The translations under genes were made by a program, and so were the position numbers. 64,000 bases of DNA from a virus (Duplodnaviria > Caudoviricetes): the IMG/VR virus record IMGVR_UViG_3300007512_001664, positions 96,001-160,000 of that record; one strand, written 5' to 3'. Under the pieces are notes generated by a model. The model was not told where the DNA came from, searched no databases, and saw only the letters and a list, made by a program, of their open reading frames with translations. Shown one piece after another: positions 47,883-54,969 of this stretch; the stretch's first letter is position 1; every line of letters starts with the position of its first letter.

Positions 47883-48157
47883 AAATCAATAGAATTTCTT
47901 TTGAGATATTTAGTTATATATTTACTTTTATACAAATAAGGATCATGTTGTAAAAATAATTTAACTAACTCAAAATTACTATCTAATAATAACGACGCTT
48001 TAAATAATTCTCTATACTTTTCTTCTTTAAGAACTAATAAAAATACATTGGCGAGATTAATTTTTCGGTTCTCGGAAATTGAAATAAAACTACATAATGA
48101 CAAGAAAACATGTACAATATCTTTTCGTTCTAAAATTGTATATGGACTGTCTGTCAT
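47879..48157 (-). CDS. Hypothetical protein
   Basis: 92 aa with ATGA-type overlaps on both sides. Confidence 0.6.
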   Translation of the reverse strand: MTDSPYTILERKDIVHVFLSLCSFISISENRKINLANVFLLVLKEEKYRELFKASLLLDSNFELVKLFLQHDPYLYKSKYITKYLKRNSIDL

Positions 48158-49053
48158 TTTGTATCTAGTGGTTCGAATTGCTTGCTCAAAGAGAGCACAT
48201 TATCGTTTAACATACCACCGGCTGCATATTCATGACCACCACCGTCGCATATCTTCTTAGCAAAAGTACTTAAATTAAAATCTATATTTCTATTTCTTCG
48301 GAGATATACTCTTTTGTTTTTTAAATTAATCATCATACATACATCGCAATCATAAGTATCAACAATATATTGACCTAAATCGTTAATATATTCATTTGCA
48401 AATGTACTAATAAAGTTATATTCCTTTCCACCTATAGATAATTTTGCTTTAAATAAATCTATGGTTTCTCTCATTTTTTTAAATTTATAAAAATGATAAC
48501 TAATTATTTTATTTTGTTCGTTTGTGAATCCGAAGAAACCATTTTCAAAATCGTTAATAAAGTTTTGCAGCTTATCACCATTTTTGTACCATAGATAGAA
48601 ATTTAATTTATTACTCTCCGGGTATTTTAATTCATAACAATCATAATCATTTGCAAATGTAATTAATTTTTTCTGTTCCTTAGTAAGATTTACATTTGGA
48701 TATATATGATTTAATATTTGATATAAATGTTTACTGCATGATGGTTGATTTACATTTATATATGTTTTAGCAAAAGAATAATCATCCTCATGAGATTTAT
48801 GATGATCAAAAATAATTACATTTTTTTTGTCTATTAAATCTTTAATTTCTGTAGTATCTAAATCAAAGAAGTATACTCTTTTATAATCCTCAATTTTATT
48901 ATAATTGAGCCATCCTAATAGTTTTTCACGTATGTTAGAAACCTTTAATGTAACAGCTTTTGGTTTAGTCTGTTTAAACCATGTATAAATTAAATAGCTA
49001 CAACAACCGTCGAGATCTAGGTCGGTAAAAATTATTTCATCCTTATTATTCAT
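48154..49053 (-). CDS. DHH/DHHA1 phosphoesterase
   Basis: TDLDLDG, FDL, FDHH, CSKH, GGGHEYAAG. Confidence 0.88.
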   Translation of the reverse strand: MNNKDEIIFTDLDLDGCCSYLIYTWFKQTKPKAVTLKVSNIREKLLGWLNYNKIEDYKRVYFFDLDTTEIKDLIDKKNVIIFDHHKSHEDDYSFAKTYINVNQPSCSKHLYQILNHIYPNVNLTKEQKKLITFANDYDCYELKYPESNKLNFYLWYKNGDKLQNFINDFENGFFGFTNEQNKIISYHFYKFKKMRETIDLFKAKLSIGGKEYNFISTFANEYINDLGQYIVDTYDCDVCMMINLKNKRVYLRRNRNIDFNLSTFAKKICDGGGHEYAAGGMLNDNVLSLSKQFEPLDTK

Positions 49054-49207: not shown

Positions 49208-50560
49208 TTACATCACTCTTCCGAATTGTACAGCGTCATCTTCCGCAGCGTTCACATCTTCATTTATATTCAAATCGTTATTTTCTGTAAGAGTAAGAGT
49301 GTTATAGTCTATAGACACTCGAGTACTACCCGTGTTAGAACCAAATCGATTTTTAATAATACCTATATGAAGAGCATCATCTTCTTCATCCTCTTCTGTT
49401 CTCCATATACTAACTATTGCATCAGCAGTAGCTCCTAGACCATAACTTTCACCAATAGCATCTAAACCAGGACCACCAGCGTTATTACCTGTACCGTACC
49501 CTGTTCTGTTTACTTGTGTTGCAGATACAATTGGACATTCAAAGGTATATGACATTGCTCTTACTTGTTCAGATATACTTTTTATTCGTTCATATGAATT
49601 ATTACCATATGTACTTGCCATTAAGTTTAAATAATCAAGTACAATAATATCAGGTTTAAATTTTTTGTTTATTAGTTTTTTTATAAAACCTTCTAATTGT
49701 GGAGGTGTAATTGAACTCGGAGCAAATTCTTTAATTATAATATTTCCTCGAGGGTGTGTTATTTTAAATTTACCTACTCTATCTCTCAATTCTTCGACGT
49801 GATCATCTAAATGATTTATAGGTAATCCAGTAAGCTTAGATGTAATTCGTTTACAATAAATCATTTCTGACATTTCGAGAGAAATAACTAAAACATTTTT
49901 ATCTTCTGCTGCAGCGTTACTTGCTATATTACTCAAGAATATAGATTTTCCAACGTTAGTAGGTCCAGCAAAAATATACATACTACGCCCTTGTTCGAGG
50001 AATCCTCCTCCTAATCTAGTATCAAGCCAATCCCAGCCTGTTTTAATTTTTTCTTCCCGTGTCGTTAGGTCAGTAATATGTTGCTCTACATCTTTAAAAT
50101 AATTATGACCTGTATTTGTCGTAATAGAGATGTTACATGCTTTTGAGAACTTATCATGAATGCTTTTTACATCTCTTTCTTTATTATCAACAATTTCTAA
50201 AAACGTATTAAACACAGCTTGTTCTTGTAAAAACTTCTCTGTGTAAGAAAGTAATAAGTCATTAGATAATTCTACTTCTAAAACATCAATGATTTTTTTA
50301 CTTGCTTCGTAATGCTGTTTAAGTTGTGGTGTGTTTAAATATAATTGTAATTCAGTAATAGTCGGACGTCTATTATTCTTCCGATAAAGTGCTTGAATGA
50401 TTTTAATTATTTGCTGAAAGTCTTTATTCTTAAAAAATTTATAATTAAGATTATCAATAATAGAATTTAGATAAACTTCGTCTTCAAGACAATTCTTAAA
50501 AACTACCTTTTCTAAATATTCTAAATCTATATCTAAGTAATTACTTTCGTTTGTTAGCAT
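49208..50560 (-). CDS. gp41: Replicative DnaB-like helicase gp41
   Basis: GPTNVGKS, ISLEMSE, IKEF, VLDYLNL, SATQVNR, ESYGLGATAD, IKNRFG. Confidence 0.95.
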   Translation of the reverse strand: MLTNESNYLDIDLEYLEKVVFKNCLEDEVYLNSIIDNLNYKFFKNKDFQQIIKIIQALYRKNNRRPTITELQLYLNTPQLKQHYEASKKIIDVLEVELSNDLLLSYTEKFLQEQAVFNTFLEIVDNKERDVKSIHDKFSKACNISITTNTGHNYFKDVEQHITDLTTREEKIKTGWDWLDTRLGGGFLEQGRSMYIFAGPTNVGKSIFLSNIASNAAAEDKNVLVISLEMSEMIYCKRITSKLTGLPINHLDDHVEELRDRVGKFKITHPRGNIIIKEFAPSSITPPQLEGFIKKLINKKFKPDIIVLDYLNLMASTYGNNSYERIKSISEQVRAMSYTFECPIVSATQVNRTGYGTGNNAGGPGLDAIGESYGLGATADAIVSIWRTEEDEEDDALHIGIIKNRFGSNTGSTRVSIDYNTLTLTENNDLNINEDVNAAEDDAVQFGRVM

Positions 50561-51242
50561 GTTCTAACAGAGTATTATAGAAGTATTCTTCTGATTTGCT
50601 ATATTCTTCTGTGTGGTTGAGTAGGCCAGGTGATTCATGAATAATGTGAATAGGGGCAGTGGTTAAGCGCAAACCAGCTAAATGACAATCTAAACAAAAT
50701 TTTAGATCATAATAATGGAATCCTTTAAGGTTAGTATCAAATTTTATTTTTTTCTCGGAAATTGATTTTGTCCGAATTGCAAGAAACACTCCGTCTAATA
50801 ATACTACTTCTTTAGGTGTTTGGCCGAAGATTGTAGGGGCATAATCTGTATTATTATGATAATGTGACACTATACCAGACATAGTATCTGGCTTACATAA
50901 TAAATGCCATAAACAAGGTTTTTGAACTTGTAACTTACTTCCTCCAGCGACACCGATAATATCAAATCCTCGCTTAAACGCATTACGAATTTCTACTAAG
51001 AAATTTATGCTATCAATAAATACATCATCATGTACAAAAAGGATACAGTCATATTTTTTAAAATTTTCTGGTATAAGATAATTATTATAAACAGCACACA
51101 ATCCACTAGTATTTTTATATGTAGGCTGTAAGTCGAAAGTAGTTATAGTGTTTTCATCGTGATGAGTTAAGCTTTTAGATAATCTAGTTGTTTTAAAGAT
51201 GGCTTCAGTAGTTTGAGTTGCAACCGCAATTAAAGTTTTCAT
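50541..51242 (-). CDS. GT-A fold glycosyltransferase (GT2-like)
   Basis: ILFVHDDV (DxD-type), GVAG, VLLDGVFLA, FHYYDL. Confidence 0.85.
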   Translation of the reverse strand: MKTLIAVATQTTEAIFKTTRLSKSLTHHDENTITTFDLQPTYKNTSGLCAVYNNYLIPENFKKYDCILFVHDDVFIDSINFLVEIRNAFKRGFDIIGVAGGSKLQVQKPCLWHLLCKPDTMSGIVSHYHNNTDYAPTIFGQTPKEVVLLDGVFLAIRTKSISEKKIKFDTNLKGFHYYDLKFCLDCHLAGLRLTTAPIHIIHESPGLLNHTEEYSKSEEYFYNTLLEHANKRK

Positions 51243-51877
51243 ATAAAAAATGGAGAATTTAATTTAAATGTATTAGTTTTAGTAAAGTTATTTTTACTAA
51301 AATTAAATTCATATACTGTACCCTCTTCCACCATTTCCCATTCCGAATATGGCGCTGAACTAAATGATTTATTATCAGTAAATAATGTGGAACCGGATCT
51401 AAAAATACGTAACCTACCCATATCTGGTTCATACATCCAGCATCCAAATGTTCCTTCAATTTCCGATAGAGCGTTTTGTATACCAGACATATATATCAAC
51501 GGTAATATTATACTACTATCTACTTTATTTACCTTACTTGATAATGTGTATTTTTCTTTTAATTTATCAAAATTTTGTAGTACGCCGTTATGCGCTAAAT
51601 ATGTATTTTTATATGAAAATGGATGTGATGTATCAATATTAAAAGTTCTAACTTCTGTCGTAGGGGACTGTACATGTCCTAGGTAATATAAACAAAATGG
51701 ATTTTCTTCTATATGTCTATTAAAATCTTGTTCGTATTTCGTCATTACGCGGACATTATTTTTCATTCCGCTAGGAAACATCATTGTTACGCTACGTACA
51801 AAATTACCCCTTTCTGAGTTCTTTGTATATAACTCTCTAAATGTTTTAATATCTGTTGAACCAAAAATACCACACAT
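51239..51877 (-). CDS. Class II (Ntn) glutamine amidotransferase
   Basis: N-terminal MCGIFG, LGH, HPF, AHNG, VDS, EGTF. Confidence 0.88.
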   Translation of the reverse strand: MCGIFGSTDIKTFRELYTKNSERGNFVRSVTMMFPSGMKNNVRVMTKYEQDFNRHIEENPFCLYYLGHVQSPTTEVRTFNIDTSHPFSYKNTYLAHNGVLQNFDKLKEKYTLSSKVNKVDSSIILPLIYMSGIQNALSEIEGTFGCWMYEPDMGRLRIFRSGSTLFTDNKSFSSAPYSEWEMVEEGTVYEFNFSKNNFTKTNTFKLNSPFFI

Positions 51878-51878
51878 A

Positions 51879-52835
51879 TTATTTTAATTGTATGAACTTT
51901 GTATCACTCAGGCAACTTAAATCTTTACACCCGGCGTATGAAATAGAGCTCTTAAGAGCTTTTTCGATTTCTTTTAATCTAATATTATACTCTGGAGCTA
52001 AGTCTATTGCTATCTCTCTCCCTTCAACGAAATTTAATTTATTTCCCTTTTGCATATATGATGTACTTCCATAATATTCCTTATACCCATCAACAATTTT
52101 AGCTGGTGAGTCTACACACCCTGCAAAGAAAGAACCAGCCATTACACAGTCTGCTCCAGCAACTAATGCTTTTGCGACATCTCCAAATTCTCGACAACCA
52201 CCATCGGCCATTATTTTAGCTTTTGTTTTATGTGAGGTAATTTTTAACAATGTTGAAAACATTGGTGTACCAAAGCCTGTTTTATATCTCGTAGTACAAA
52301 TAACTCCAGATCCGATTCCTACTTTAATAACGTCAGCACCGGAGTCTTCTAAAAAATGGAACCCGTCGTATGTTCCAACATTACCAGCGATAACTATTAC
52401 ATCAGGTAAATTCCTTTTAACGTATCTAATCATATTACCGACTTTTTGATGATGTCCGTGCGCAACGTCAATTGTAATAATATCAACTTTATAATTATTA
52501 TCTATAATCGCTTCTAATTCTTGATATGATTTTTCATTTACCCCTATACTGACACTCACACAATTACAATTAAGCTCATTAAGTTGTCGCACTGTTTCAA
52601 ATACATCCTGAAATCGATGCATAATATAAAAATAATTATTATCATCTAATTGCTTACAGAGTTTGAGATCTATTACCGTTTCCATGTTAGATGGAACAAC
52701 TGGTAGATTAAATGTAAACTTACCTAATTTAAAAGATGTGTCGGCGTTGTTTCGAGTATCTAATTGACTATATCCTGGTACTAATAAGATATCAGAATAT
52801 TCTAGCTCTTTACCATGGTATATCTGTTCGCTCAT
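51879..52835 (-). CDS. guaC: GMP reductase (type 2, no CBS domains)
   Basis: YFYIMHRF, IDVAHGH, AGNVGT, KVGIGSGVICTT, ADGG, VEG, SSISYAG. Confidence 0.9.
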   Translation of the reverse strand: MSEQIYHGKELEYSDILLVPGYSQLDTRNNADTSFKLGKFTFNLPVVPSNMETVIDLKLCKQLDDNNYFYIMHRFQDVFETVRQLNELNCNCVSVSIGVNEKSYQELEAIIDNNYKVDIITIDVAHGHHQKVGNMIRYVKRNLPDVIVIAGNVGTYDGFHFLEDSGADVIKVGIGSGVICTTRYKTGFGTPMFSTLLKITSHKTKAKIMADGGCREFGDVAKALVAGADCVMAGSFFAGCVDSPAKIVDGYKEYYGSTSYMQKGNKLNFVEGREIAIDLAPEYNIRLKEIEKALKSSISYAGCKDLSCLSDTKFIQLK

Positions 52836-53496
52836 ATTCGATTGGGTCTTTGATTTTATTCTCTAAAAAGCCTTGTATACGTGAACTACAAGCAGTACAA
52901 TAACCGCATGCAACTTCTTTACCTTCATAACAAGTCCAAGTGTCTTCAAAACGCACACCATTATCTAATCCCAGTTTTACGATTTCTCGTTTAGATAACT
53001 CAATTAACGGTGCTTCTATTTTAATTAGATTTTTTCTATTTAAACTTGTAACGTTATTAATTTCAGTTAAAAATTCCTTACTACCATCCCAGTATCCAGC
53101 CTGACTATCTACCAAGGCTGATCCATGATAAACAGTATTAGCTCCGACCGCTTCAGCATATGAACATGCAATAGACAGCATCATCATATTACGAAATGGC
53201 ACATAGTTTACAGTTTGAGCGTCTCCTAGAACATCTCTCGTATGAGCGACTTTAATTTTATTGTTTGTTAAGGAAGAAGTATTAGCAATAGTTTTAAAAA
53301 ATTGTATATCTAATATTTTATGTTGTTCGATACAATCATAATTAATTAATTGAAACCCTGCGAATTGAATTTCTTTACGATGCTTTTGACCGTAATCAAA
53401 AGTTATTGCATATATATCATCATGTCGATCCGCTGCTATGCTTAGTATTACGGAACTATCTAAACCTCCTGAAATAGGTACAACTGCTTTACTCAT
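52810..53496 (-). CDS. queC: 7-cyano-7-deazaguanine synthase
   Basis: SGGLDS, FDYGQKH, YVPFRN, TWTCY...CGYCTAC..R. Confidence 0.93.
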   Translation of the reverse strand: MSKAVVPISGGLDSSVILSIAADRHDDIYAITFDYGQKHRKEIQFAGFQLINYDCIEQHKILDIQFFKTIANTSSLTNNKIKVAHTRDVLGDAQTVNYVPFRNMMMLSIACSYAEAVGANTVYHGSALVDSQAGYWDGSKEFLTEINNVTSLNRKNLIKIEAPLIELSKREIVKLGLDNGVRFEDTWTCYEGKEVACGYCTACSSRIQGFLENKIKDPIEYERTDIPW

Positions 53497-54577
53497 CTTC
53501 TTGTTCTAATATAGCACCCTCGTCTAATGATTTACCATACCGGTATTTTTCATTTATAGAAGATTCTAACTTAGGTAATATAGATTTCCACGTCTCTTCG
53601 TCATTGCGCCAATTCTTATAATAACCTAATTTTTTATCCCCCATACTATATGTAGAACCATTTTGTTGTACAATACCGTGAGATACGGCAATATCTTTTA
53701 ATCCAGAATATTTTTCTAGACCTGTTTTGAAATTTAAATATGCTTCCGCTTGTAAAAATGCTGGAATAAATCTATTTTTTACGGTAAGCATTCTAAGAGT
53801 AACTCCGGAATAGTTTCTACTTTCTGATAGCGCCTCGTCGTTGTCGTTTGAAGCGTCAGTTCTTTCTTTTTTAGCTGCCATTTGGACTAATAAAGAAGCC
53901 ATGTACATAGGGCCCGACCCACCAGCTTGTTGCTTGACTAAGGTAGGATGGAGTGCACCAGGATCAGCATATGTATGATTACTACATATAATAGTTGTAC
54001 CGGTCACCGCGGCCTTATATGTAATAATACGCATCATGGATTTTAGCTGTTTGGCCCGCAGCCCCATGTCCATGGCTCCTTTATTAGACTCAGCATCAAG
54101 AATTTCTTTTGATGATGCTAAATTACCTAATGAATCTATTGATATAATAAATTTTCCGTGAAGTTCTGGTTCATTTTCTACTTCATCTAAAAATGCCATT
54201 ATTTGATTACGACAGTTTTCTACAGTATCTATTGGAACATACTTTACATTAGAAACATCTAGACCTACATTTTCTGCACCTTCTTTTTCAATAGCGACCT
54301 CTGTGTCAAATATTATAGGTATCATTCCTTGCTTTTGAGCTTTAGCGAGAATTTTATTTAAAATAAAAGTCTTACCGCATTGAGACTCTCCAGCGAAAAT
54401 TGTAATTCTACCCTTAGGTACGCCACCATGTAGTGACCCAGATAGGATAGAATTTAATACTAAACAACCTGTATCAATCCACTCTGTTACATTACTCAGA
54501 GTGTTTTTCTCTAAAGTAGTAGCATTGCTGTTAAGCTTTTGGAGCTTAGCAAATGCCTTATCAACCAGTTTTGACAT
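53489..54577 (-). CDS. uvsX: RecA-like recombinase UvsX
   Basis: AGESQCGKT, FDTE, IDSLGNL, NHTY, GG.G..Y, KNRF. Confidence 0.93.
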   Translation of the reverse strand: MSKLVDKAFAKLQKLNSNATTLEKNTLSNVTEWIDTGCLVLNSILSGSLHGGVPKGRITIFAGESQCGKTFILNKILAKAQKQGMIPIIFDTEVAIEKEGAENVGLDVSNVKYVPIDTVENCRNQIMAFLDEVENEPELHGKFIISIDSLGNLASSKEILDAESNKGAMDMGLRAKQLKSMMRIITYKAAVTGTTIICSNHTYADPGALHPTLVKQQAGGSGPMYMASLLVQMAAKKERTDASNDNDEALSESRNYSGVTLRMLTVKNRFIPAFLQAEAYLNFKTGLEKYSGLKDIAVSHGIVQQNGSTYSMGDKKLGYYKNWRNDEETWKSILPKLESSINEKYRYGKSLDEGAILEQEDE

Positions 54578-54578
54578 A

Positions 54579-54935
54579 TTATTCCTCGAATAATGTTACT
54601 TCAGGTATGTTCTCGTCAGATAGCGTGGTCGCGGCAGGTTCAGGGTTTGACTCTTCCTTGACATTAATCTTAGCATTATAATGAACTAATATTTTATCAG
54701 AAATAGTAACCTCGACTTCTGTGTATTGAGTGTTTAGATATTTAAATATTGGCGCTTCACCGCTAGAAAATTCAGTAAAGAATAACGGCATAACATCAAC
54801 TTTCATATTAGCAGCGTCATTGGGCGTTACCATAATCATCGCTGGTGCTTTAACTCTTAAAGATGAATCTGTTTGCTCTACTAGCTCTCCGAAACACGTC
54901 CTACCTATACTATCAATGTATGTAATGATATCCAT
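54579..54935 (-). CDS. Hypothetical protein (small beta-barrel-like)
   Basis: 118 aa with its own sigma70-like promoter. Confidence 0.7.
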   Translation of the reverse strand: MDIITYIDSIGRTCFGELVEQTDSSLRVKAPAMIMVTPNDAANMKVDVMPLFFTEFSSGEAPIFKYLNTQYTEVEVTISDKILVHYNAKINVKEESNPEPAATTLSDENIPEVTLFEE

Positions 54936-54941
54936 GTAATT

Positions 54942-54969
54942 ATTATATTATCAAAAAATTAATTTGCAA
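54942..54969 (-). promoter_or_regulatory. Sigma70-like promoter heading the uvsX-queC-guaC-gat-GT-gp41 operon (leaderless)
   Basis: TTGCAA-N16-TATAAT, then 6 nt to ATG 54935. Confidence 0.65.

What the first reader, a model, noticed from the sequence alone, without database searches (positions are those of the whole stretch)
50541..53496. queC-guaC-Ntn amidotransferase-glycosyltransferase operon wedged between uvsX and gp41: candidate new guanine-modification system
Seen: four genes tightly coupled to each other and to uvsX and gp41 (overlaps or a 1-nt gap), downstream of one sigma70-like promoter. Established: QueC makes preQ0; QueC paired with a class II Gat domain is linked to archaeosine (G+) synthesis; phages use 7-deazaguanines in DNA; GuaC converts GMP to IMP; T4 places its DNA-modifying genes (gp42, beta-gt) next to uvsX; inosine and deazaguanine replacement of G has been reported in T4-like Campylobacter phages. 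Inference: this phage may deplete or divert GMP, make a deazaguanine (or inosine) nucleotide and glycosylate it, a combination I do not recognise as described. folE, queD, queE and dpdA are absent from this window. Alternatives: tRNA queuosine support, or QueC-type protein deazaguanylation (QatBC/Cap9-like).
Basis: partly seen in the sequence, partly recalled or inferred. Interest (0 to 1): 0.82.

Follow-up and report, generated by a model that had tools for sequence, protein, structure and literature searches.

The report
Deazaguanine genes plus added GMP reductase
The four genes are real, but they are not one new pathway. QueC and its glutaminase partner supply one step of a known type of phage system that replaces guanine in DNA with a 7-deazaguanine. 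The GMP reductase is a recent add-on found in only one sub-lineage. Only the small glycosyltransferase, always coupled to the glutaminase gene, remains unexplained.

Summary
On the minus strand, QueC (52810-53496), a GMP-reductase-type protein (51879-52835), a class-II (Ntn) glutaminase (51239-51877) and a GT-A glycosyltransferase (50541-51242) lie packed between uvsX and the gp41 helicase, behind a conserved promoter.

The complete 200.8-kb phage genome also carries FolE, QueD and QueE 2.5 kb beyond the window. 82 kb upstream it carries a DpdA3-DpdN-orf116-kinase-QueF operon. [quoted passage not shown] QueC is the genome's only QueC, so it makes that pathway's preQ0.

The glutaminase belongs to a large standalone family. 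It follows QueC in unrelated Vibrio and Pseudomonas phages and matches the Gat half of the phage 9g Gat-QueC fusion. It is probably QueC's ammonia donor.

GuaC sits in a variable slot and occurs in only one sub-clade. Its 50%-identical relatives lie in other phage-like contigs with no QueC nearby. It is most likely a purine-pool auxiliary gene.

The GT is nearly always abutted to or overlapped by the Gat gene across a deep, uncultured marine T4-like lineage. Its acceptor is unknown, and this is the only new element.

Overlapping windows of this same genome had noted the same stretch. No other DNA had.

The parts
54942..54969 (-). sigma70-like promoter TTGCAA-16-TATAAT in the pol/orf118 gap; it heads the orf118-uvsX-QueC-GuaC-Gat-GT-gp41 run
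   Evidence: Found in the scan. Both hexamers are conserved across relatives while the spacer varies.
54579..54935 (-). orf118, a conserved small protein of unknown function, first gene of the run
   Evidence: No Pfam, NCBIfam or PHROG match. Present in the same place in relatives.
53489..54577 (-). uvsX (RecA-family recombinase), upstream flank
   Evidence: PF00154 63 bits. 48-100% identical in the related loci.
52810..53496 (-). QueC, 7-cyano-7-deazaguanine (preQ0) synthase; the only QueC in the genome
   Evidence: PF06508 201 bits and TIGR00364 178 bits, above the 150 cut-off. SGGLDS PP-loop and the C-x7-C-x2-C-x2-C zinc motif are present. Single copy in the genome.
51879..52835 (-). GuaC-type GMP reductase, an accessory gene inserted in the variable slot between QueC and Gat
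   Evidence: PF00478 206 bits and NF003966 317 bits. Scores 253 bits against B. anthracis GMP reductase 1ypf, and the GIGSGVICTT catalytic loop is kept. Present in only one sub-clade. Homologues about 50% identical lie in other phage-like contigs without QueC.
51239..51877 (-). Standalone class-II (Ntn) glutamine amidotransferase, probable glutaminase partner of QueC
   Evidence: GATase_6 43 bits. N-terminal MCGIFG; C2, R23, N97-G98 and D120 are invariant. Follows QueC in Vibrio and Pseudomonas phages. Aligns to the Gat half of 9g Gat-QueC at hhalign probability 91%. Profile matches to GlmS, PurF and AsnB glutaminase domains run from residue 1.
50541..51242 (-). Small GT-A glycosyltransferase (PF13712) whose start overlaps the Gat gene; acceptor unknown
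   Evidence: Glyco_tranf_2_5 50.6 bits. H71-D72-D73 is invariant. The AF2 model has pLDDT 93 and TM 0.67 to the UDP-bound majastridin structure 2qgi. Gat-GT abut or overlap in nearly all related loci that show both genes.
49208..50560 (-). gp41-type DnaB replicative helicase, downstream flank
   Evidence: DnaB_C 96 bits. Conserved position in the relatives that hold the uvsX-gp41 region.

Best explanation
The block is a mosaic, not one pathway.

1. QueC is the single preQ0 synthase of a complete phage pathway for replacing guanine with a 7-deazaguanine. The other parts lie outside the window. FolE, QueD and QueE are at genome 162.5-165.0 kb. The DpdA3-DpdN-orf116-P-loop kinase-QueF operon is at 10.4-13.6 kb. 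A Gpt-like phosphoribosyltransferase is at 19.0-19.5 kb. [quoted passage not shown]

2. The Ntn glutaminase is QueC's split partner. It is inferred to hydrolyse glutamine and pass ammonia to QueC for the amide-then-nitrile chemistry.

3. GuaC is an ordinary GMP reductase (GMP + NADPH to IMP + NH3) that landed in a variable slot between QueC and Gat in one sub-lineage. It is inferred to rebalance purine pools for an A+T-rich genome. It may also drain the guanine that base exchange releases, after the phage's Gpt-like enzyme salvages it to GMP.

4. The GT is a soluble GT-A enzyme that uses a nucleotide sugar. Its gene is coupled to Gat across the whole lineage. Its acceptor is not established.

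Shown: gene identities, motifs, synteny, and the pattern of presence and absence.
Inferred: the fdPreQ1 product, ammonia transfer from Gat to QueC, and the GuaC role.
For: Gene identities.

Pathway parts elsewhere in the genome:
- FolE, QueD and QueE.
- QueF, the kinase and the DpdN-like formyltransferase.
- The 272-aa protein is 46% identical to the annotated DpdA of immuto phage and 40% to the CP220 DpdA3 homologue.
- DpdA3-DpdN-kinase-QueF stand in the same order in immuto. Published data for immuto: fdPreQ1 at 345,000 per 10^6 nt with the dG peak gone (PMC10516641).
- The same operon is kept in relatives G001, G002 and G005.
- Only one QueC in the genome.

Gat:
- It lies directly after QueC in Vibrio phages 1.081.O, 2.275.O and phi-Grn1 and in Pseudomonas phage pf16, all of which also carry QueF.
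- phi-Grn1 DNA has dPreQ1 and mdPreQ1 but no dG+.
- It is homologous to the Gat half of 9g Gat-QueC.
- The standalone family is large: 130 clusters at E<=1e-30.

GuaC:
- Absent from relatives that keep QueC-Gat-GT.
- On a uvsX tree, GuaC carriers form one starred clade of 11 rows plus one further row. Direct QueC-Gat adjacency is seen in 17 rows, including deep branches.
- Its relatives at about 50% identity lie in other phage-like contigs without QueC.

PRT: the Gpt-like gene is present in this genome, in GuaC-less relatives and in immuto.
Against: - No chemistry was measured. The lineage is uncultured: the DNA polymerase is at most 31% identical to that of any phage in the phage record collection searched.
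- immuto phage, the experimental reference, has neither the Gat nor the GT. So these two genes are not needed for fdPreQ1 as such and may point to a different end product here.
- The QueC+Gat pair is homologous to Gat-QueC, which makes G+ in phage 9g. A G+ branch therefore cannot be excluded.
- The complex prediction for QueC, GT and Gat gave no verdict.
- GuaC overlaps QueC by 26 nt and is under purifying selection. A pathway-linked role in its own sub-clade is therefore not excluded.
- The conserved kinases and the PRT could mean that part of the pathway runs on nucleotides. That would change the role proposed for GuaC.
Confidence: 0.6

Rival explanations
1. The GT, working with or downstream of Gat, adds a sugar to a 7-deazaguanine derivative. 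The target could be the free base, a nucleotide, or the base already in DNA. This lineage would then carry a glycosylated deazaguanine not yet described.
For: - GT homologues down to about 36% identity lie in the Gat-GT arrangement between QueC and gp41 in the loci that show that region.
- In a second arrangement, the GT lies beside gp5 with an AAA_28 kinase and QueF nearby, and in L041 also a QueD-type PTPS gene.
- It is the only PF13712 gene in the genome. It sits among early replication genes, as the T4 DNA glucosyltransferases do.
- No hydroxymethyl-pyrimidine route exists that could offer another DNA acceptor.
Against: - fdPreQ1 and preQ1 have no hydroxyl group, and N-glycosylation by a GT-A enzyme is unusual.
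- The fold matches are generic GT-A.
- Linkage within a single viral lineage may reflect only inherited synteny.
- The nearest cellular homologue sits in an unrelated bacterial context.
- The full-text searches made here found no report of a glycosylated deazaguanine.
Confidence: 0.15
2. The GT has nothing to do with DNA. It would glycosylate a phage or host protein or glycan. Its position next to Gat would be inherited gene order in a compact T4-like core.
For: - The genome carries many other glycosyltransferases and a large glycan island, according to earlier unchecked notes. A further GT32-like gene was seen.
- The best structural matches are sugar- or polymer-acting GT-A enzymes.
- immuto phage makes fdPreQ1 without such a GT.
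Against: The overlapping start with Gat is kept across very deep divergence, while the neighbouring slot between QueC and Gat turns over. The GT stays near deazaguanine genes even in the second arrangement.
Confidence: 0.25
3. QueC and Gat work as a split Gat-QueC. They would make the amidine base G+ (archaeosine base) rather than merely preQ0, alone or alongside the QueF/DpdN branch.
For: Both halves are homologous to phage 9g Gat-QueC. That enzyme yields dG+ in DNA (PMC6884629).
Against: - This is the genome's only QueC. QueF, which is conserved, needs preQ0.
- phi-Grn1 and phi-ST2 DNA have no dG+. phi-Grn1 carries the split pair and QueF.
- QueC scores above the canonical QueC equivalog cut-off. 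It matches the plain-QueC PHROG far better than the fusion PHROG.
- The gene order, QueC then Gat, is the reverse of the fusion.
Confidence: 0.12
4. One reading: the four genes are one new pathway. It would drain or divert GMP, build a deazaguanine or inosine nucleotide and glycosylate it. GuaC would act like ToyE/TubD of toyocamycin/tubercidin biosynthesis on a 7-deaza-GMP.
For: - The four genes are tightly coupled and under purifying selection.
- A Gpt-like PRT and two P-loop kinases are conserved beside the pathway genes, so a nucleotide-level stage is conceivable.
- From my own knowledge, not tested here: the toyocamycin cluster pairs QueC with a GMP-reductase homologue.
Against: - GuaC is missing from most of the lineage, which keeps everything else.
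- Its nearest relatives are stand-alone genes in other phage-like contigs.
- A DpdA3 transglycosylase is present.
- There is no adenylosuccinate-synthetase homologue to take a deaza-IMP onwards.
Confidence: 0.07
5. The block would support host tRNA queuosine, or QueC would be a QatC/Cap9-type protein-deazaguanylating enzyme.
For: QueC-family membership only.
Against: - No match to the tRNA-guanine transglycosylase family PF01702 in the genome.
- The full DNA-type set, DpdA3, DpdN and QueF, is present.
- QueC is above the canonical equivalog cut-off and has the canonical motifs.
- No QatA/B/D or CBASS genes are next to it.
Confidence: 0.02

Closest known systems
[quoted passage not shown]
   Same: Every named component has a homologue in this genome. 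DpdA3 is 46% identical, DpdN 40%, QueF 43%, FolE 52% and QueD 42%. DpdA3-DpdN-P-loop kinase-QueF stand in the same order, with an extra 116-aa gene here between DpdN and the kinase. A small Gpt-like PRT is also shared.
   Different: The virus backbone differs: T4-like with a family B polymerase here, against a family A polymerase in immuto. The genes are split over three loci. This lineage adds a standalone Gat and a GT next to QueC, and in one sub-clade a GMP reductase. immuto has none of these.
Gat-QueC fusion of Enterobacteria phage 9g and Crenarchaeota (G+ synthesis; PMC6884629)
   Same: It combines a class-II Ntn glutaminase with a QueC PP-loop ATPase. The Gat profile aligns to residues 1-202 of the 9g protein (probability 91%). 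QueC aligns to residues 253-468 at 31% identity.
   Different: Here there are two separate genes in the order QueC then Gat, often with other genes between them. They co-occur with QueF and DpdN, so the product needed is preQ0, not G+.
QueC-Gat gene pair of Vibrio Schizotequatrovirus phages (1.081.O, phi-Grn1), jumbo Vibrio phage 2.275.O and Pseudomonas phage pf16
   Same: The same standalone Gat family (26-31% identity; invariant C2, R23, H68-Q70, N97-G98 and D120) lies directly after QueC, with QueF and FolE nearby.
   Different: Those phages have a larger TGT-like gene upstream of QueF rather than DpdA3. They have no GT after Gat and no GuaC. Their Gat is annotated only as hypothetical or 'nucleophile aminohydrolase' (PHROG 12378, unknown function).
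Bacterial type-2 GMP reductase GuaC (e.g. B. anthracis, PDB 1ypf) and phage-borne GuaC genes (Bacillus phage G gp120, Caulobacter phage Cr30)
   Same: Similar length of about 320 aa and no CBS insert. The catalytic Cys-Thr loop is kept. It scores 253 bits against 1ypf and is 44% identical to phage G gp120.
   Different: The score is slightly below the NCBIfam equivalog cut-off (317 against 344). It is embedded between QueC and Gat in this sub-clade only.
Majastridin (Rhodobacter blasticus ATP-operon ORF6, PDB 2qgi/2nxv), a small GT-A protein solved with UDP
   Same: This is the best sequence and fold match for the GT: profile E 2.9e-5, Foldseek E 3.5e-12, TM 0.67, and a similar size of about 240 aa.
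   Different: Only 18% identical. From my own knowledge, majastridin's acceptor is also unknown, so the match gives the fold and nucleotide binding but no function.

Membership tests
QueC, preQ0 synthase (PF06508 / TIGR00364) | Score above the curated equivalog cut-off | tested here: met
   TIGR00364 177.9 bits against a cut-off of 150.3; PF06508 201 bits.
QueC, preQ0 synthase (PF06508 / TIGR00364) | SGGxDS PP-loop and a four-Cys zinc motif | tested here: met
   SGGLDS at residues 9-14 and C189-x7-C197-x2-C200-x2-C203, read from the translation. The motifs are as described in PMC13329287.
QueC, preQ0 synthase (PF06508 / TIGR00364) | Converts CDG to preQ0 | not testable with these tools
   Inferred: it is the only QueC in a genome that also encodes QueF, which needs preQ0.
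Phage 7-deazaguanine DNA modification, fdPreQ1 type (DpdA3 + DpdN) | FolE, QueD, QueE, QueC, QueF, a DpdA3 and a DpdN all encoded | tested here: met
   All seven were found in the complete genome. DpdA3, DpdN, the kinase and QueF stand in the same order as in the reference phage.
Phage 7-deazaguanine DNA modification, fdPreQ1 type (DpdA3 + DpdN) | G in virion DNA replaced by fdPreQ1 | not testable with these tools
   The virus is uncultured and there is no DNA to analyse.
GMP reductase (GuaC), IMPDH/GMPR superfamily | IMPDH/GMPR TIM-barrel domain, no CBS insert, catalytic Cys loop | tested here: met
   PF00478 206 bits over residues 11-315. The GIGSGVICTT loop aligns with GIGPGKVCIT of 1ypf.
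GMP reductase (GuaC), IMPDH/GMPR superfamily | Score above the NCBIfam GMP-reductase equivalog cut-off | tested here: not met
   NF003966 316.8 bits against 344; TIGR01306 288.6 against 465.7. GMP-reductase models still outscore IMP-dehydrogenase models about two to one. I therefore call it GMP-reductase-type, not a proven equivalog.
GMP reductase (GuaC), IMPDH/GMPR superfamily | Substrate is GMP rather than a 7-deaza analogue | not testable with these tools
   Needs an enzyme assay.
Class-II (Ntn) glutamine amidotransferase | Cys directly after the initiator Met as nucleophile, the Asn-Gly oxyanion pair, and an Asp that binds the glutamine amino group | tested here: met
   MCGIFG at the N-terminus. 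C2, R23, N97-G98 and D120 are invariant in the family. The profile aligns from residue 1 to GlmS, PurF and AsnB glutaminase domains. GATase_6 scores 42.9 bits against a cut-off of 27.
Class-II (Ntn) glutamine amidotransferase | Delivers ammonia to a partner synthase (here QueC) | tested here: inconclusive
   Gene adjacency in four phage lineages and the existence of the 9g fusion support it. The complex prediction gave no verdict.
Gat-QueC (G+ synthase) | One polypeptide, Gat at the N-terminus and QueC at the C-terminus | tested here: not met
   Two genes in the order QueC then Gat, with GuaC between them. No fusions among the 150 best family representatives.
GT-A glycosyltransferase (PF13712, Glyco_tranf_2_5) | Pfam score above the cut-off, a DxD-type metal motif and the GT-A fold | tested here: met
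   50.6 bits against 27. H71-D72-D73 is invariant. The AF2 model has pLDDT 93.3 and TM 0.67 to UDP-bound 2qgi.
T4-type DNA glucosyltransferases (alpha-gt, beta-gt) | GT-B fold and a hydroxymethyl-pyrimidine acceptor made by a ThyA-family hydroxymethylase | tested here: not met
   The fold is GT-A. The genome has no PF00303 member and no TET/JBP.
Toyocamycin/tubercidin-type deazapurine nucleotide pathway | PRT, GMP-reductase homologue, and adenylosuccinate synthetase/lyase homologues | tested here: not met
   A PRT and a GuaC are present, but there is no PF00709 match. GuaC is absent from most of the lineage. The ToyE and TubD sequences themselves were not compared.
QatC / Cap9 protein-deazaguanylation systems | Divergent QueC with QatA/B/D or CBASS partners nearby | tested here: not met
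   QueC is canonical by score. Its neighbours are uvsX, GuaC, Gat and GT.

The most novel reading that the evidence does not exclude
The Gat-GT pair, coupled to QueC in a deep and abundant uncultured marine T4-like lineage, would make a further hypermodified 7-deazaguanine, for example a glycosylated or glycosylamine-bearing derivative. This would occur in DNA or in its precursors. It would add a sugar-bearing member to the known deazaguanine DNA bases.
Probability: 0.15. Interest if true: 0.8.

Novelty: new variant of a known kind. Interest (0 to 1): 0.45.

Why it matters
7-Deazaguanine replacement of G protects phage DNA from restriction and Cas9 (PMC6884629, PMC10484667). This analysis places a whole deep, uncultured marine T4-like lineage in the DpdA3/DpdN class that replaces G completely. 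So far that class is known from one Flavobacterium phage and a few uncultured sequences.

It also shows that a standalone glutaminase is a regular partner of QueC in several phage lineages. PHROGs still lists that family as of unknown function.

It separates a true add-on, the GMP reductase, from the conserved core. It also isolates one specific, testable unknown: a small glycosyltransferase locked to the glutaminase gene. If that enzyme acts on the deazaguanine, it would define a new DNA base. If it does not, the locus is an ordinary member of a known system.

Tried and rejected
- Megablast of the block against the phage record collection found nothing. tblastn with the GT also found nothing. 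No phage in that collection carries this GT.
- The Pfam TGT model found no DpdA in the genome. That negative was misleading: DpdA3 is too divergent for PF01702.
- The complex prediction for QueC + GT + Gat scored 0.01 against a mark of 0.34, which is no verdict. It is not used for or against binding.
- A profile search of 1.84 billion proteins with the Gat family looked for Gat-GT or Gat-QueC fusions. The 150 best hits are nearly all standalone proteins of about 215 aa.
- The toyocamycin-like route was rejected for lack of a PurA homologue and because GuaC is patchy.
- The hydroxymethyl-pyrimidine + GT route was rejected because there is no ThyA-family enzyme and no TET/JBP.
- The GT fold search gave only generic GT-A matches, including a nucleoside-glycosylating AvpGT at TM 0.56, no better than the others. 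I draw no acceptor from it.
- A first dN/dS script timed out. The rerun used 25 random pairs per gene.
- Literature searches for DpdA3, and for glycosyltransferase together with 7-deazaguanine, found nothing beyond the 2019 and 2023 papers.

Full report
**1. What is there**

The window is bases 96001-160000 of a complete 200,819-bp viral genome. The genome has direct terminal repeats and 33.6% G+C. The minus strand between 57617 and 49208 carries a run of genes with no real gaps:
- a family B DNA polymerase;
- a 118-aa ORF;
- uvsX;
- QueC;
- an IMPDH/GMP-reductase protein;
- a class-II amidotransferase;
- a Glyco_tranf_2_5 glycosyltransferase;
- a DnaB-type gp41 helicase;
- a DHH phosphoesterase.

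The overlaps are 8, 26, 4 and 20 nt, with a single 1-nt gap.

The only intergenic gap upstream lies between the polymerase and orf118. It holds TTGCAA-16-TATAAT. Promoter-like strings are not enriched in this A+T-rich region. However, both hexamers of this one are kept in relatives while the spacer drifts, so it is probably real.

All four genes are under purifying selection, with median dN/dS of 0.13-0.17. For comparison, uvsX is at 0.05 and gp41 at 0.08.

**2. The proteins**

QueC is canonical.
- TIGR00364 scores 178 bits, above the 150 cut-off.
- It has the SGGLDS PP-loop and the four-Cys zinc motif.
- It is the only QueC in the genome.

The second protein is of the GMP-reductase type.
- Its best models are GMP reductase NF003966 at 317 bits (cut-off 344) and TIGR01306.
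- The IMP dehydrogenase models score about half as much.
- Its best solved relative is B. anthracis GMP reductase 1ypf at 253 bits. The catalytic Cys-Thr loop is kept and there is no CBS insert.

The third protein begins MCGIFG.
- C2, R23, N97-G98 and D120 are invariant in its family.
- Its profile aligns from residue 1 to the glutaminase domains of GlmS, PurF and AsnB.

The fourth protein has an invariant H-D-D motif.
- Its AlphaFold2 model is confident, with pLDDT 93.
- The model is a small GT-A fold closest to UDP-bound majastridin 2qgi (TM 0.67) and STIV A197.
- The remaining matches are generic GT-A enzymes.

**3. The rest of the pathway lies elsewhere in the same genome**

Three further gene groups were found:
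- FolE, QueD and a QueE-type radical-SAM protein lie 2.5 kb past the window's end (genome 162.5-165.0 kb). They are followed by a P-loop (AAA_28/dNK-like) kinase.
I confirmed it as a bimodular QueF, a second AAA_28 kinase, a 116-aa ORF, a PurN-like formyltransferase and a 272-aa protein.
- A Gpt-like phosphoribosyltransferase lies at genome 19.0-19.5 kb. It is 29% identical to the PRT of immuto phage.

The 272-aa protein has no significant Pfam match, and the TGT model had missed it. [quoted passage not shown] It is 40% identical to the Campylobacter CP220-group protein. It is therefore a DpdA3.

In immuto phage, DpdA3, DpdN, a P-loop kinase and QueF stand in the same order. FolE, QueD, QueE and a small phosphoribosyltransferase lie just upstream.

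Cui et al. (PMC10516641) reported three relevant results:
- The dG peak is gone from immuto DNA, and fdPreQ1 is present at 345,000 per 10^6 nt.
- They named the formyltransferase DpdN.
- DpdA3 is the subfamily associated with complete replacement.

By gene content, the genome belongs to the fdPreQ1 type, and the window's QueC supplies its preQ0.

**4. Comparative anatomy of the block**

*The lineage.* The polymerase is at most 31% identical to that of any phage in the phage record collection searched. The lineage is therefore uncultured.

*The conserved layout.* Searches with GuaC and with a GT profile brought in about 100 related loci from IMG/VR and other assemblies. Mapping the genome's proteins onto them gave the following:
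- uvsX-QueC-[slot]-Gat-GT-gp41, mostly followed by DHH, is kept throughout a deep clade.
- Within that clade, polymerase identity falls to 49%, GT identity to about 36% and Gat identity to about 30%.
- The Gat and GT genes abut or overlap in nearly all of these loci.

*The variable slot.* What lies between QueC and Gat differs from locus to locus:
- nothing, in 17 of 34 distinct uvsX rows;
- GuaC, in 12 rows;
- other cargo, in 5 rows. This is an 87-aa ORF, or a reverse-strand gene of 288-476 aa that in some loci is followed by an HHH protein.

*Where GuaC arose.* On a uvsX tree, GuaC carriers form one well-supported terminal clade of 11 rows plus one further row. Direct QueC-Gat adjacency is found in deep branches. 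GuaC is therefore a derived insertion.

*GuaC relatives.* Its closest relatives outside the clade, at about 50% identity, lie in other phage-like contigs beside Nudix, metallophosphatase and hypothetical genes. There is no QueC within 6 kb.

*Other pathway genes in relatives.* The DpdA3-DpdN-kinase-QueF operon and the Gpt-like PRT are present in GuaC-less relatives. One of these is a complete 230-kb genome.

*A second arrangement.* A second group of phages has the GT beside the gp5 baseplate gene, with an AAA_28 kinase and QueF nearby. In locus L041 a QueD-type PTPS gene lies nearby as well.

**5. The glutaminase**

The same standalone family lies directly after QueC in four phages that also carry FolE and QueF nearby:
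- Vibrio phage 1.081.O (a Schizotequatrovirus);
- Vibrio phage phi-Grn1 (a Schizotequatrovirus);
- the jumbo Vibrio phage 2.275.O;
- Pseudomonas phage pf16.

The family profile aligns to the N-terminal Gat domain of the phage 9g Gat-QueC fusion, with hhalign probability 91%. The window's QueC aligns to the C-terminal half of that fusion at 31% identity. The fusion is a Rosetta-stone argument that QueC and this Gat work together.

In 9g, the fusion yields dG+ (PMC6884629). However, phi-Grn1 and phi-ST2 DNA contain dPreQ1 and mdPreQ1 and no dG+. phi-Grn1 carries the split pair and QueF.

QueC and its closest relatives with glutaminase domains are PP-loop enzymes, as in asparagine synthetase B. 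I therefore infer that Gat feeds glutamine-derived ammonia to QueC. A G+ branch stays open as a rival.

The family is large: 130 clusters at E<=1e-30 and 898 at E<=1e-10. Among its 150 best representatives, nearly all are standalone proteins. PHROGs lists it as of unknown function.

**6. The GMP reductase**

Sequence and distribution point to an ordinary GMP reductase picked up as an auxiliary gene. Phage-borne GuaC genes are also known in Bacillus phage G, Caulobacter phage Cr30 and others.

A plausible local rationale, which is inference only, runs as follows:
- DpdA-type base exchange releases one guanine for each G replaced.
- The conserved Gpt-like PRT would return that guanine to GMP.
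- GuaC would then pass part of the GMP to IMP and on to adenine nucleotides, which a 66% A+T genome needs.

A ToyE/TubD-like role on a 7-deaza-GMP is not excluded for this sub-clade. It is disfavoured by the patchy distribution and by the absence of an adenylosuccinate-synthetase homologue.

**7. The glycosyltransferase**

This is the part no known system accounts for.
- It is the genome's only PF13712 protein.
- It has no PHROG and no homologue in the phage record collection searched.
- Its close family is mostly viral.
- Its gene is locked to Gat over a divergence at which neighbouring positions have turned over.
- The genome shows no route to a hydroxymethyl-pyrimidine acceptor.
- immuto phage makes fdPreQ1 without any such enzyme.

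Either the GT adds something to the deazaguanine pathway in this lineage, or it acts on an unrelated acceptor and its position is inherited. I could not separate these two readings. The complex prediction gave no verdict.

**8. Verdict**

- The locus is a new variant of a known kind: a DpdA3/DpdN-type 7-deazaguanine system.
- It has a split QueC/Gat step, a lineage-wide coupled GT of unknown acceptor, and a sub-clade-specific GMP reductase.
- It is not a new four-gene guanine-modification pathway.

Noticed in passing
G000:C1:19011-19490 (L006:11012-11491, minus strand), outside the window: A small Gpt-like purine phosphoribosyltransferase (PRK09177, 74 bits). It recurs near the DpdA3 operon in GuaC-less relatives and has a homologue between QueE and FolE in immuto phage. 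It may be a conserved companion of DpdA3 systems, for guanine salvage or for making a deazaguanine nucleotide.
   Followed up: partly
G000:C1:11333-11908 (minus) and 165054-165812 (plus), outside the window: Two AAA_28/dNK-like P-loop kinases (PHROG 'thymidylate kinase'). One is inside the DpdA3-DpdN-QueF operon and one lies directly after QueE. The operon copy is conserved in relatives and in immuto phage. Their role in a pathway said to work by base exchange on DNA is unexplained.
   Followed up: partly
G000:C1:41993-42547 (L005:5994-6548), outside the window: A second PTPS/QueD-family gene. It is followed by a methyltransferase, an MptE-like protein and an NAD-dependent epimerase/dehydratase, with a GT2 gene further on. 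It may be a pterin- or sugar-related module separate from the deazaguanine pathway.
   Followed up: no
G000:C1:161335-162501 (L004:5336-6502), outside the window: A 388-aa protein with a weak cytidylyl/adenylyltransferase-like C-terminal half, directly beside FolE. Together with the AAA_28 kinases, it recalls the two halves of NadR.
   Followed up: no
L041:10305-12524; also L101-L103: In a second phage group, a metallophosphatase gene stands where DpdA3-DpdN stand here, upstream of the AAA_28 kinase and QueF. The GT lies on the other side of gp5. No DpdA3 was seen in the stretches fetched.
   Followed up: partly
L044:4571-6291, L134:6443-7309, L137:936-2917: In deep-branching relatives, the slot between QueC and Gat holds a reverse-strand gene of 288-476 aa with no Pfam match. 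In L044 and L137 an HHH DNA-binding protein follows it. The slot looks like an insertion hot spot.
   Followed up: no
window 57650-58870 (minus strand): A 406-aa ORF just upstream of the DNA polymerase. It had no NCBIfam match here, and Pfam was not run on it.
   Followed up: partly
window 48154-49053 (minus strand): A DHH/DHHA1 phosphoesterase directly after gp41. It is conserved in most loci that reach that far, followed by small ORFs and gp32.
   Followed up: no
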